Part shown: positions 24,001-27,000 of the stretch, piece by piece
How the letters are laid out: each line of letters opens with the position of its first letter
How positions within the stretch are numbered: position 1 is the first letter of the stretch
Assembly (NCBI GenBank): GCA_963820525.1
Contig: CAWGAA010000002.1
Location: 654,535-718,534, forward strand
Direction of reading: 5' to 3'
Length of the DNA stretch: 64,000 nucleotides
From: an uncultured Spirochaetota bacterium
GTDB lineage: Bacteria; Spirochaetota; Spirochaetia; SZUA-6; Fen-1364
Program-made: the position numbers

Positions 24001-27000
24001 CGGAGGGCTGCGCCTCGATCCTCCTTCGAGATTCCAGCAGGGCGAGCTATTCGGCGGCGCTTCTCAAGCTCACGCCGAAGGACCTGCTCGCGCTGAAGGT
24101 TATCGACAGGATAGTGCCGGAGCCGGGCGGTGGAGCCCAGGAGGATCCCGTCTCCGCGGCATCCGCTCTGAAGGCGGCGATATCCGAGAGCCTGGCGGAG
24201 CTTTCCAAGAAGACCGTGGAAACGCTGATCGCTGAAAGGCAGGCCAAGTTCCTCAGCATGGGCGTCTTCCAGGAGAAGGAGCCCGAGCGCAGGGGCTTGC
24301 TGCAGAGACTGAGGGATTTCTTCTAGGCCTAGCGTGTCGCGCAAAGCGGCAGCCGCTTGCGCTCTATATTATTCCCGCCTTCTTTCCCGTTTTTCCCGCA
24401 ACCTCGAGGATCTTGTCGAGATCGTCATCGGTATGGATGGCCATGTACGAGGTTCGGATGAGGCAGCTGTCGGGCGGAACGGCCGGGCTCAAGACGGGGT
24501 TCGTGAATACCCCGCCCTCGAAGAGGGCCCACCAGAACATGATCGTTTTTTCCATGTCTCCAATGATGAGCGGCACGATGGGGGTTTCTGACGGTCCCGA
24601 CGTTGAAGCCGAGGGACTTGAAACCCTTCACCATCTTGCGGCCTATCGCCTGGAGCCGGTGAACCCGCTCGGGCTCCTTCTCGATGATGTCCAGCGCGGC
24701 GGCGACGGAGGCGATTGTGGCGGGAGGCATGCTGGCCGCGAAGATCAACGGCCGGGAGAAGTGCTTGATGTACTCGATCACCTCGTTATCCCCGGCGAGA
24801 AACCCTCCCAGGGCGCCGAAGGACTTGGAAAAGGTGCACATCACGATGTCGGCCAGGGCCGTGCCGCTGTAGTACTCCTCCGTGCCCCGGCCCGTATCGC
24901 CGATCACCCCGATGGCGTGCGCGTCATCGAGATAGAGCCGCGCCTTGTACTTGTCGCACAGCTCGCGGAGGGTGGGAAGCTTGGCGATATCGCCCTCCAT
25001 GCTGAACACCCCGTCGGTGACAACCAGCTTCGGCTCGTCATCCGGCACGCCGGAGAGGAACTTCTCAAGGCTGGCGGGGTTGTTGTGCGTGTAGCGGTGT
25101 ACGCGGATGTTCCCCCGCAGCCCCGTGGAGAGGAAAATGCCGTCCATGATCGAAGCGTGATTGAGCTTGTCCGTGAAGACGTGCTCGCCCTTGCCCAGCA
25201 ATGCCGAAATACCCCCGAGGTTTGTCTGATAGCCCGTCGTGAAGCAGAGGGCCCGCTTCTTGCCCACGAAATGCGCAAGCCTGCCTTCGAGCTCCTCGTG
25301 GAGGGCGAGGGTCCCGTTCAGGAACCGGGAGCCCGAGCAGCTCGTTCCCCATTTCCGGGTCGCGGCAATGGCGGCTTCGATGACGCGGGGGTCCCAGGAA
25401 AGGCCGAGGTAGTTGTTCGACCCCGCCATGATGAGCTCCCTGCCCTTCATGACGACGCGAGTCCCGCGGCTTTCTTCTATTGGTATGAAGTAGGGGTACA
25501 GCCCCTTCTCCTGGACTTCCTTCGCCTCGCGCCATTCGTAGCATTTCTGGAAAATATCCAAAGCGCCCTCCTTGTTATGGGGTGTGGGTTCGGAAACAGG
25601 CGCTACAGTAATACTACGGGAAAGCGCGCTTTGTAAAGAAGAGCAGCCTTTTAATTCGCCTTGAGGAGCGTCTCGAAGAGGGCGAGGGTTTCCGGCGTGT
25701 CCCAATCCCTCCCGCCGACGGCGCGCCCGAGGATGCTTCCATCCTTGGCCACGATGTAGGTGACGGGGATTGCCTGGGCCCCGTAGGTTTGTCCAATCTC
25801 TCCCGTGGCGTCAAGAAGCACGGTAACGTCCATCTTGTTCGATTTCACGAAATCCGCGACCTTTGCCGTGTCTTCGGCAACGTCGACGGCGAGAACACGC
25901 AGGCCCTTCGCCTTGAGTTTTCCATAGAAGCTCTCCAGGGAAGGGATTTCTGCCCTGCACGGAGGGCACCAGGTGGCCCAGAAGTTGAGGAGAACCACGG
26001 ACCCGCGAAGTGAGCTGAGCTTCACCGCGCCGCCGTCGAGGCCCGGAAGCTGGAAGTCGGTCGAATCGATCCTGGACTTCGGAAGCTGGAAGCCGGCCTT
26101 CGCAAGCGTCGCGGAGATATCCGTTGCCGATTGCGCCGACGCAAAGGCCAGAGGCACGGTCATCACAAGGGCCAACATTAGCTTTCGCATATATAGTCTC
26201 CCCGTTACTTCTCCATTAACGTACAAATTTCTCATGTCCTTGGCAACAGGTCCGTGCCGAAGAGGCTCACGCAGAAGACCGTGAAGTTGTACAAGGCATG
26301 GGCGATGGCGACAACGTGGAGATTTTTCACCCTCAGGAAGACAATGGCGAGATAGATGCCCTGGATCGCGGTTACCGCGATGCCCGCGATTCCTTCATAG
26401 ATGTGGCCGCTTGCGAAGAGAAGCGCCGTGGCCGCAACCGAGAGGGCGGCCGGAACCCCGAGCTGATCCATGCGCGTGAGCAGGTATGCGCGGAAAAAAA
26501 GCTCCTCCCTGTAGCCGGCCACCAGGCCAATCGCAAGGGCGAGGGGGAGCTGGGATGCCCGCTGTATGCCCCACCTGTACCCGCCGGTAAGAGCCTCACG
26601 GAAGGCGGGGGGAAGGGAGAGCGCGAGAAAGAATATCGGAACCAGGATGGCAAAAATCCCGAGGTACGCGGCGAGAATGCGCATCGGATCCTGTTTCGTG
26701 AAGCCGACGACGCCGAAATCCGCCAGTTTCGGCTCTCCCTGGATGCCGATGATGTAGAGCGTGAGCAGGATCTGGGGAATCCCCACGACTATGTAGGAAA
26801 TCGATACGGCATTGAAGTTGGCCAGCCTCGCGCCGAGATTCTCGGCCTGGCTCACGTAGCCGGAGAGGAAAAAAGTGCAAAAAAGGAGGGCCATTTCCAG
26901 GATGAGCCGGTTTCTCTTCATCGATTAAATTTCCTCCGGTTGCTATGGAATTATAGGGTTTTCTGTTCGATAATTATAGCAGCGACATGATAATAGGGAT

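What a model noticed while it worked through the whole genome (the two positions that open the first line are those of the whole stretch)
24425..25561. Serine palmitoyltransferase-like gene with ceramide-synthase and reductase homologs in a spirochaete lacking lipid A gen [...]
g03469, beside the acetyl-CoA carboxylase operon, is closest to Sphingobacterium serine palmitoyltransferase and is conserved family-wide; the genome also has four bCerS/YghO homologs and a CerR homolog but no lipid A genes, so this lineage may build sphingolipids for its outer membrane.
Evidence so far: 47% to SPT, E 4e-90 against 8e-64 for AONS/KBL and 3e-56 for KBL; a separate kbl-tdh pair exists and no bioA/B/D hits; bCerS homologs 29-37% (g00405, g02645, g02386, g01914), CerR 31% (g01457); ortholog in 11 of 13 family genomes, next to accA in 8 of 9 loci; no LpxC or other lpx/kds families. 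Searches 179, 181, 188 showed no paper on spirochaete sphingolipid synthesis (listings).
(Added by a program. Inside this text positions count along the whole contig: contig position 654,535 is position 1 of the stretch shown here. "Call 12" and the like, gene names such as g00115 and contig names such as C1 are that model's own, and its searches are not shown. The text may have been shortened before it was handed on; [...] marks where a part breaks off. The agent that wrote the report below was given it as the finding of a first reader that could run no searches.)

Follow-up and report, generated by a model that had tools for sequence, protein, structure and literature searches.

The report
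Spirochaete sphingolipid-starting enzyme gene
This gene very likely encodes the enzyme that starts sphingolipid synthesis in a group of free-living spirochaetes, which also carry genes for sulfonolipids; it extends a known pathway to a group without reported sphingolipids, but nothing here shows that these lipids stand in for the missing lipid A.

Summary
The gene is real and intact: 24364-25561 (-), 398 codons. Its frameshift is an assembly error (the extra base is missing in 4 of 4 runs). It belongs to a Spirochaetia clade (100/100) inside the clade that holds Bacteroides Spt (97/92) and keeps the catalytic residues of Sphingobacterium Spt. An intact ortholog scores 486, under NCBIfam's 640 cut-off. 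Of the 49 nearest non-spirochaete relatives, 43 lie beside bCerS and/or CerR genes; spirochaete orthologs lie beside bCerS-CerR or a KDSR-like reductase. This genome holds the matching bCerS and CerR elsewhere, six bCerS-like genes in all, and an unreported cysteate synthase-CFAT pair for sulfonolipid. Lipid A genes are absent, but LpxC was missing in all 56 same-class genomes sampled, 51 of which gave no Spt hit, and 28 of 51 Spt-bearing phylum genomes keep LpxC: replacement is unsupported. Against: three near-complete relatives keep Spt without any bCerS. No enzyme or lipid data. The scan noted a spirochaete ceramide operon before, on other DNA (e1-4892374). New member of a known kind.

The parts
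24364..25561 (-). Spt-like alpha-oxoamine synthase, 398 aa once the assembly error is discounted (TTG start, TAG stop)
   Evidence: 16 intact family orthologs of 398-400 aa start at the same place
24591..24592 (.). one surplus base in the assembly that shifts the last quarter of the gene out of frame
   Evidence: left out in contigs of runs X1, X2, X3 (24591) and X5 (24592)
25567..25573 (-). ribosome-binding site AAGGAGG
   Evidence: read from the sequence; GGAGG also precedes the start in all 16 intact orthologs
25651..26235 (-). TlpA/ResA-like thiol-disulfide oxidoreductase, upstream, same strand; conserved neighbour, no shown role in the pathway
26232..26921 (-). CPBP-family intramembrane protease-like gene, upstream, same strand; conserved neighbour
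23355..24326 (+). accA, convergent with the spt-like gene
   Evidence: over cut-off
22486..23358 (+). accD
   Evidence: 316.5 bits against a cut-off of 317.45
21163..22484 (+). accC, with an assembly frameshift at 22106 (internal control for indel errors)
20687..21166 (+). accB
   Evidence: over cut-off
20090..20509 (-). fabZ, same strand as the spt-like gene; follows spt directly in 9 of 31 spirochaete loci, with the acc operon lying between them in this family

Best explanation
The gene encodes a serine palmitoyltransferase-type enzyme. As a PLP-dependent homodimer it condenses L-serine with a long-chain acyl thioester, releases CO2 and gives 3-ketosphinganine (mechanism from characterised Spts; inferred for this protein). 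In this genome the product is most likely N-acylated by the bCerS ortholog at G000:C1:2694343-2695452 and reduced by the CerR ortholog at C1:1617636-1618610, giving dihydroceramide-type membrane lipids (inferred from orthology and from the neighbours of relatives). The acyl chain probably comes from the cell's own fatty acid synthesis (inferred from the spt-fabZ linkage). The lipid is one envelope lipid among others, beside a sulfonolipid made by a separate cysteate synthase-CFAT pair; it is not shown to replace lipid A. Shown: intact gene, clade, residues, partner genes, distribution. Not shown: activity, substrates, lipid, location.
For: Best PDB and NCBIfam matches are Spt by a wide margin (P0002: SmSPT E 7e-112, next family 5e-77, CFAT 1e-57; NF047600 486 bits, BioF 358, Kbl 323). 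Tree: Spirochaetia clade 100/100, nested in a 97/92 clade with Bacteroides finegoldii and Parabacteroides distasonis Spt, which pass the NF047600 cut-off; BioF, Kbl and CFAT lie outside. SmSPT residues N52, G80, S81, N117, H138, S185, D210, H213, T241, F242, S243, K244, F272, A274, R367 are kept in 31 of 31 spirochaete loci; at 274 the genome's Kbl has N and its CFAT has K (residues from PMC10196870 and PMC13692747, passages). 43 of 49 nearest non-spirochaete relatives have bCerS and/or CerR within the fetched flank, 28 both. Within the spirochaete clade L044 is bcerS-cerR-spt, L041 is bcerS-KDSR-spt, and a KDSR-like SDR directly precedes spt in 7 of 31 loci plus 3 of 3 loci of family f3; its best PDB hit is fungal KDSR Tsc10 (E 3e-29, next SDR 2e-26). 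41 of 42 spt-linked bCerS match C1:2694343 best among the six, and 31 of 31 spt-linked CerR match C1:1617636 best in the whole genome. bCerS-like genes occur in 16 of 16 family genomes with intact spt and 22 of 26 other clade genomes, and in 47 of 51 Spt-positive against 48 of 230 Spt-negative phylum genomes (kin are not independent). Kbl exists separately; the biotin pathway is missing and BioY present.
Against: No activity or lipid data. The intact ortholog stays under the curated Spt cut-off (486 < 640), though bcerS-linked relatives do too (487-574). G053, G105 and G219 (99-100% complete) keep the ortholog at 63-66% but show no bCerS even by profile. A close CerR ortholog (E < 1e-90) is in only 6 of 16 family genomes and 4 of 26 others, and no family genome has the KDSR ortholog. 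YghO-like genes also occur without Spt or CFAT in 43 phylum genomes, among them 8 of 9 of genus g5, so their presence alone is weak evidence. The same large clade holds a Priestia plasmid gene with no ceramide neighbours and a Clostridiaceae gene with neither bCerS nor CerR nearby. The window protein has Ala where SmSPT has Ser273 (S 23, T 7, A 1 among 31 loci) and CTFSKS for GTFSKS. A Nostoc enzyme whose best match was SmSPT (38.75%) made no 3-ketosphinganine (PMC8895605, passages), though it fell outside the Spt clade.
Confidence: 0.76

Rival explanations
1. Spt-clade enzyme with a shifted output: it uses another amino acid (glycine, alanine) or a shorter acyl chain and makes 1-deoxy bases, free amino alcohols or an aminoketone that is never turned into ceramide.
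For: Three near-complete relatives have KDSR-spt but no bCerS; reductase orthologs are patchy in the family; clade members in Priestia and Clostridiaceae lack ceramide neighbours; SmSPT itself accepts Ala, Gly, homoserine and Thr (PMC10196870, abstract and passages); Ser273 is Ala here.
Against: Serine-pocket residues are kept; this genome has the best-matching bCerS and CerR; bcerS-cerR-spt and bcerS-KDSR-spt clusters exist inside the same spirochaete clade.
Confidence: 0.15
2. One reading: sphingolipids (with sulfonolipids) take the place of lipid A in the outer leaflet of this lineage, as in sphingomonads. This adds to the best explanation and rivals only its last step.
For: No lipid A genes in a 96.7% complete genome; spt kept in 23 of 24 family genomes at 74-84% identity in intact or cleanly aligned pieces; CFAT orthologs in 17 of 24; BamA is present. 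Precedent: sphingomonads (PMC11087976, introduction) and lipid A-free Caulobacter mutants (PMC9393093, listing only).
Against: LpxC was found in 0 of 56 same-class genomes, of which only 5 gave an Spt hit; across 281 phylum genomes Spt+LpxC 28, Spt only 23, LpxC only 126, neither 104. Most lipid A-free spirochaetes manage without Spt, and half of the Spt carriers keep LpxC.
Confidence: 0.2
3. BioF (AONS) supplying biotin for the neighbouring acetyl-CoA carboxylase, or a second Kbl.
For: Lies next to accBCDA; matches BioF and Kbl models at 358 and 323 bits.
Against: Both scores are under cut-off and below the Spt score; bioB and bioD are not found and BioY is; true kbl-tdh lies elsewhere; the tree separates it from BioF and Kbl; it is convergent with accA, and the acc operon is beside spt only in this family.
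Confidence: 0.04
4. The gene is a pseudogene in this strain.
For: Frameshift in the assembly before the catalytic Arg367 equivalent.
Against: The extra base is absent from near-identical contigs of 4 of 4 runs; accC shows a like error; 16 family orthologs are intact. One of the runs may be the source sample.
Confidence: 0.02

Closest known systems
Sphingobacterium multivorum serine palmitoyltransferase (PDB 3A2B, 8GUH) and Bacteroides Spt (NCBIfam NF047600)
   Same: Best structural relative (E 7e-112 for P0002); same length class; catalytic and serine-pocket residues kept; same supported clade as Bacteroides and Parabacteroides Spt; genes not clustered with bCerS/CerR, as reported for Bacteroidota (PMC11334938, section 20).
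   Different: Under the NF047600 cut-off (486 < 640); CTFSKS motif, Tyr at 114, Ser at 79, Ile at 271, Ala at 273 in the window protein; five-residue insert near residue 145; neighbours are tlpA, acc and fabZ, not a diacylglycerol-kinase-family gene.
Bacterial ceramide pathway Spt-bCerS-CerR (Caulobacter; E. coli BL21(DE3) yghO-aasR-cerR-acpR-spt cluster)
   Same: All three enzyme types present: YghO homolog 37% (E 1e-72), CerR homolog 29% (E 8e-33) to the E. coli proteins, 31-45% to spt-linked copies in other phyla.
   Different: Genes dispersed over two contigs; six bCerS-like paralogs; Spt of the Bacteroidota type (35% to E. coli Spt); the ACP and acyl ligase sit beside a bCerS-like paralog, not beside spt.
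Spt-like clade B of the Black Sea survey (Ding et al. 2024, PMC11334938)
   Same: Same kind of prediction from tree position and partner genes; 38 phyla listed as potential producers; unlinked genes accepted.
   Different: 'spiroch' does not occur in the main text of paper or preprint; the supplement with the phylum list could not be read, so Spirochaetota may already be among the 38.
Sulfonolipid pathway: cysteate synthase and cysteate-C-fatty acyltransferase (Capnocytophaga CapB, PDB 28EH; Alistipes SulA, PDB 7U7H)
   Same: Not this gene, but a second gene pair of the same genome: CFAT-like protein E 1e-122 to 28EH with the Lys280 equivalent, directly behind a cysteate synthase over cut-off (515 > 325).
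   Different: Characterised CFATs are from Bacteroidota (PMC13692747, parts 1-2); no CapC-like reductase was identified beside the pair; the window gene has Ala, not Lys, at that site.
Eukaryotic 3-ketodihydrosphingosine reductase (Tsc10/KDSR, PDB 8JAT)
   Same: Best PDB match of the SDR that precedes spt in 10 spirochaete-clade loci; 20 of 120 listed homologs are named 3-dehydrosphinganine reductase by their sources.
   Different: Not in this genome as a clear ortholog (best E 4e-52 against < 1e-100 for orthologs); the margin over other SDRs is small (105 against 96 bits).

Membership tests
NCBIfam NF047600 (SerpalmtaseCFB equivalog) | score of at least 640 bits | tested here: not met
   395 for the truncated window protein, 486 for intact ortholog P0002; Bacteroides and Parabacteroides controls 700 and 684. 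Not filed under this family.
Spt-like alpha-oxoamine synthases (Bacteroidota-type clade) | PLP catalytic set (His138, Asp210, His213, Lys244, Arg367 of SmSPT) | tested here: met
   31 of 31 spirochaete loci; window protein has the first four in P0001 and the Arg in the shifted frame
Spt-like alpha-oxoamine synthases (Bacteroidota-type clade) | G-T-F-S-K-S motif (PMC10196870) | tested here: inconclusive
   TFSKS kept; first position is Cys in the window and most family orthologs
Spt-like alpha-oxoamine synthases (Bacteroidota-type clade) | serine-pocket residues Asn52, Gly80, Ser81, Asn117, Ala274 | tested here: met
   31 of 31 loci and the window protein; Ser273 is Ala in the window protein
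Spt-like alpha-oxoamine synthases (Bacteroidota-type clade) | groups with curated Spt, apart from BioF, Kbl, CFAT | tested here: met
   97/92 clade of 61 rows with two over-cut-off Bacteroidales Spt. The biochemically tested proteins themselves were not in the tree.
Spt-like alpha-oxoamine synthases (Bacteroidota-type clade) | makes 3-ketosphinganine from serine and acyl thioester | not testable with these tools
   needs an assay
Bacterial ceramide pathway (Spt, bCerS, CerR) | bCerS homolog in the genome | tested here: met
   six homologs; C1:2694343 is best match of 41 of 42 spt-linked bCerS
Bacterial ceramide pathway (Spt, bCerS, CerR) | CerR homolog in the genome | tested here: met
   C1:1617636 is best match of 31 of 31 spt-linked CerR, 31-41%; patchy in the family, 6 of 16
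Bacterial ceramide pathway (Spt, bCerS, CerR) | genes clustered (common, stated as not required in PMC11334938) | tested here: not met
   dispersed here; clustered in L044 and L041 of the same clade
Bacterial ceramide pathway (Spt, bCerS, CerR) | ceramides detected in cells | not testable with these tools
   no lipid data found
BioF (AONS) | TIGR00858 cut-off 426; bioA, bioD, bioB in the genome | tested here: not met
   358 bits; no bioB or bioD hit
Kbl (glycine C-acetyltransferase) | NF005394 cut-off 460; Asn at position 274; tdh neighbour | tested here: not met
   323 bits, Ala at 274; another gene meets all three
CFAT (CapB/SulA) | Lys at the Lys280 site; cysteate synthase neighbour | tested here: not met
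   window gene has Ala and no such neighbour; the gene at C1:2311824-2313065 meets both
Sphingomonad-type replacement of LPS by sphingolipid | lipid A genes absent | tested here: met
   genome 96.7% complete
Sphingomonad-type replacement of LPS by sphingolipid | loss of lipid A goes with presence of Spt | tested here: not met
   0 of 56 same-class genomes have LpxC, 5 of 56 have an Spt hit; 28 of 51 Spt-positive genomes have LpxC
Sphingomonad-type replacement of LPS by sphingolipid | sphingolipid abundant in the outer membrane and essential | not testable with these tools
   needs fractionation and genetics

The most novel reading that the evidence does not exclude
Free-living, lipid A-free Spirochaetia build much of their outer membrane from two long-chain-base lipid classes at once, ceramides (Spt) and sulfonolipids (cysteate synthase plus CFAT), with an expanded set of up to eight bCerS paralogs dividing the N-acylation. 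Across the clade the reductase step has been swapped between CerR and a eukaryote-like KDSR, and the KDSR-spt lineage without any bCerS uses an N-acyltransferase of a family not yet known, or keeps free sphinganine.
Probability: 0.25. Interest if true: 0.75.

Novelty: new member of a known kind. Interest (0 to 1): 0.5.

Why it matters
What free-living spirochaetes without LPS put in their outer membrane is poorly known (own knowledge). I found no paper reporting de novo sphingolipid or sulfonolipid synthesis in spirochaetes (searches, listings only). If right, a wetland and sediment lineage adds to the producers of sedimentary ceramides and sulfonolipids, the CFAT family reaches beyond Bacteroidota, and the KDSR-spt pair without bCerS gives a direct handle on two open points: the order of reduction and acylation in bacteria, and whether a second kind of bacterial ceramide synthase exists. 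The test is cheap, because a protein identical to one such KDSR-like reductase is listed under Spirochaeta thermophila, a cultured species (recalled). The pathway itself is known and already predicted in about 40 phyla, which caps the surprise.

Tried and rejected
Structure prediction from the 12-row family alignment gave a poor model (pLDDT 44); not used, no fold search run. No RNA holder was listed among the sequencing runs, so expression is open. A LAG1/TLC ceramide synthase (PF03798) was not found in 5 genomes, but no control genome rang either, so this says nothing. No myo-inositol phosphate synthase in this genome, so an inositol head group by the Bacteroides route is unlikely; three CDP-alcohol phosphotransferases exist but were not assigned. 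Co-transcription with acc was rejected (opposite strands). An SDR near the best bCerS (L111) is only 33% like the KDSR-like family over 173 aa, and the SDR near spt in L040 is of another family (24%); neither was counted. The Nat Chem Biol ceramide survey is not held and the Black Sea supplement is too large to read; both may bear on whether Spirochaetota were already listed. A word look-up of earlier findings gave nothing. Thresholds in the phylum searches (Spt 1e-105, bCerS 1e-40, CerR 1e-35, CFAT 1e-95) were my choice and single-protein queries can miss divergent copies. In one search, hits at 38-41% were Spt or other paralogs and were not counted as CFAT. Nine of the 11 KDSR-positive genomes supplied rows of the profile, so that count is partly circular.
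Full report
Observation. The minus strand holds an alpha-oxoamine synthase gene that starts at TTG 25561 behind AAGGAGG. The frame breaks near 24591 and the expected C-terminus runs on in the next frame to TAG at 24364. Contigs of 4 of 4 public runs laid on the region lack one base at 24591/24592, and the 3 runs that cover 22106 put in a G that restores accC; one run may be the source sample. Sixteen family orthologs are intact at 398-400 aa. The frameshift is an assembly error. Orthologs were found in 23 of 24 other family genomes; accA lies within 1.5 kb, tail to tail, in 21 of 22 loci fetched.

What the protein is. Its best solved relative is Sphingobacterium SPT (E 1.1e-89 truncated; 7e-112 for intact ortholog P0002, next family 5e-77, CFAT 1e-57). 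NCBIfam ranks the Bacteroidota Spt model first at 486 bits, under its cut-off of 640, with BioF 358 and Kbl 323, also under theirs. Relatives in clear bcerS/cerR clusters score 487-574 and Bacteroidales controls 684-700, so the cut-off marks a lineage more than a function; I do not file the gene under NF047600. Using the active-site list of PMC10196870 (passages) and the CFAT comparison of PMC13692747 (parts 1 and 2 of 5), fifteen positions including N52, G80, S81, N117, H138, K244, A274 and R367 are invariant in 31 of 31 spirochaete loci; the window protein differs at S273 (Ala). The genome's two other enzymes of this family differ as expected: Kbl has Asn at 274, the third has Lys.

Tree. 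The 31 and the window protein form one clade (SH-aLRT 100). In a 72-row tree with references (13 of the 31 spirochaete loci, 24 of the 49 others, 19 handle genomes), the clade has 100/100, its sisters are bcerS-linked genes (L057, L062, L077), and it lies in a 97/92 clade with Bacteroides and Parabacteroides Spt, apart from BioF, Kbl, CFAT and proteobacterial Spt. Spt-like genes of other Spirochaetota groups fall in several other places of that clade. It also holds a Priestia plasmid gene without ceramide neighbours and a Clostridiaceae gene with neither bCerS nor CerR nearby.

Neighbours of relatives. 40 of 49 non-spirochaete loci have a bCerS-like gene, 31 a CerR-like gene, 43 either, 28 both. 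In the spirochaete clade, L044 is bcerS-cerR-spt and L041 bcerS-SDR-spt; that SDR directly precedes spt in 7 of 31 loci and in 3 of 3 loci of family f3. Its best PDB match is the fungal 3-ketodihydrosphingosine reductase Tsc10, by a small margin, and 20 of 120 listed homologs bear the name 3-dehydrosphinganine reductase. fabZ follows spt directly in 9 of 31 loci; in this family the acc operon lies between them on the other strand. Three different sphingolipid-pathway genes and a fatty acid gene thus recur beside members of one clade.

Partners in this genome. E. coli BL21 YghO finds six homologs at 25-37%, one frameshifted; its CerR finds one clear homolog. 41 of 42 spt-linked bCerS match C1:2694343 best, and 31 of 31 spt-linked CerR match C1:1617636 best. 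Other paralogs lie beside an acyl ligase, ACP and phosphopantetheinyl transferase, a PlsC-like acyltransferase, an acyl-CoA dehydrogenase, or hisS. bCerS-like genes were found in 16 of 16 family genomes with intact spt (2-8 matches each) and 22 of 26 other clade genomes. The reductase is patchy: close CerR orthologs in 6 of 16 and 4 of 26, KDSR-like orthologs in 0 of 16, 8 of 26 and 3 of 3 f3 genomes. None of the 11 genomes with one has the other, which suggests displacement, but many have neither and many are incomplete.

Results against. G053, G105 and G219 (99-100% complete) have spt at 63-66% and the KDSR-like gene but no bCerS by profile. YghO-like genes occur in 43 phylum genomes with neither Spt nor CFAT hit. 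A Nostoc enzyme closest to SmSPT (38.75%) proved inactive (PMC8895605, passages). No enzyme, lipid or expression data exist for this clade in what I could search.

Lipid A. The genome (96.7% complete) gives no match to LpxC, LpxB or Kdo transferase families, with controls ringing, none to lpxA or lpxD, and only weak KdsA-model matches. But in 281 phylum genomes at least 90% complete, none of the 154 LpxC-positive rows is of the same class; families f2-f11 (56 genomes; f9 and f10 taken as same class from the numbering) are all negative, and only 5 of them have an Spt hit. Overall: Spt with LpxC 28, Spt alone 23, LpxC alone 126, neither 104. Lack of lipid A is a trait of the class and says little about Spt.

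A second pathway. The third enzyme (C1:2311824-2313065) matches Capnocytophaga CFAT (E 1e-122) and Alistipes SulA (6e-117) far better than Spt (2e-72), with the TFAK motif and the Lys280 equivalent. It follows a cysteate synthase over its cut-off. CFAT orthologs occur in 17 of 24 family genomes and 14 of 26 other clade genomes, behind cysteate synthase in 13 of 14 loci fetched, and in 14 of 280 phylum genomes. This points to sulfonolipid synthesis and gives the extra bCerS paralogs a possible substrate (inference). One listing, on Bacteroidota TamL, answered the search for sulfonolipid, cysteate and spirochaetes.

Mechanism and status. Shown: intact gene, clade, residues, partners, distribution. 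Inferred: serine plus long-chain acyl thioester to 3-ketosphinganine, N-acylation by the bCerS ortholog, reduction by CerR in the order proposed for Caulobacter (PMC11087976, part 1 of 4). Whether the donor is acyl-CoA or acyl-ACP is open; proteobacterial Spts prefer a dedicated ACP (PMC9386255, passages), and here the ACP sits beside a bCerS paralog. A Bacteroides SDR has KDSR activity (PMC9278070, passages), so a bacterial KDSR step is not new as such.

Novelty. Ding et al. predict Spt-like genes in 38 phyla and accept unlinked genes (PMC11334938, passages and section 20). Neither paper nor preprint names spirochaetes in the main text; the supplement could not be read and the original survey is not held. 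Searches listed no paper on spirochaete sphingolipid synthesis; PMC9246714 mentions Treponema only for phosphatidylinositol. The scan itself noted a spirochaete bCerS-KDSR-Spt operon in another genome (e1-4892374), seen after my own KDSR result. Verdict: a sound prediction that extends a known pathway to Spirochaetia; the pairing with a sulfonolipid pathway and the bCerS-free KDSR-spt lineage are the fresher leads. Interest 0.5.

Noticed in passing
G000:C1:2310520-2313065 (L119:5521-8066): Cysteate synthase (over cut-off) followed by a CFAT-like enzyme: probable sulfonolipid (capnine) synthesis in a spirochaete; preceded by TetR, ABC ATPase, HypB-like GTPase and Fe-S genes. Conserved in 17 of 24 family genomes.
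   Followed up: partly
L126:6980-9022, L127, L128 (G053, G105, G219): KDSR-like SDR directly before spt in near-complete genomes that show no bCerS; in L126/L127 preceded by a TRAP transporter with a TatT component.
   Followed up: partly
G000:C2:261072-264915 (L115): Frameshifted bCerS-like gene followed by an acyl ligase and an ACP, facing a phosphopantetheinyl transferase: a private acyl carrier beside an N-acyltransferase.
   Followed up: no
G000:C3:444276-446413 (L116:6277-8414): bCerS-like gene followed by a PlsC-like acyltransferase.
   Followed up: no
G000:C1:2980373-2986396 (L114): bCerS-like gene between an MFS transporter and an acyl-CoA dehydrogenase-ETF operon; may have a non-ceramide role.
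   Followed up: no
genus g5 genomes G039, G064, G082, G098, G159, G194, G204, G259: YghO-like gene (32-33%) in 8 of 9 genomes with no Spt hit; could acylate scavenged bases or another amine.
   Followed up: no
window 22106: accC carries an assembly frameshift (missing G), so other broken genes in this assembly should be doubted too.
   Followed up: yes
L167 (Priestia megaterium plasmid) 7001-8215; L107: Spt-clade genes in Bacillota; the plasmid gene lies beside a methyltransferase, an acyltransferase-family gene and an SMR pump, and L107 has no bCerS or CerR nearby.
   Followed up: no
L171 (Rubrobacter radiotolerans plasmid) 4908-10500; L168 (Aureispira plasmid) 3744-7573: spt beside a 380-aa hypothetical gene and an NAD(P) oxidoreductase (look like bCerS and CerR, not checked) on plasmids; in Rubrobacter followed by an LTA-synthase-family gene.
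   Followed up: no
G315:C361 and G319:C103: bcerS-cerR tandem away from spt in two spirochaete genomes, sister to the clustered L044.
   Followed up: no
L129-L145: Spt-like genes of other Spirochaetota groups fall in several separate places in the tree, suggesting more than one acquisition in the phylum.
   Followed up: partly
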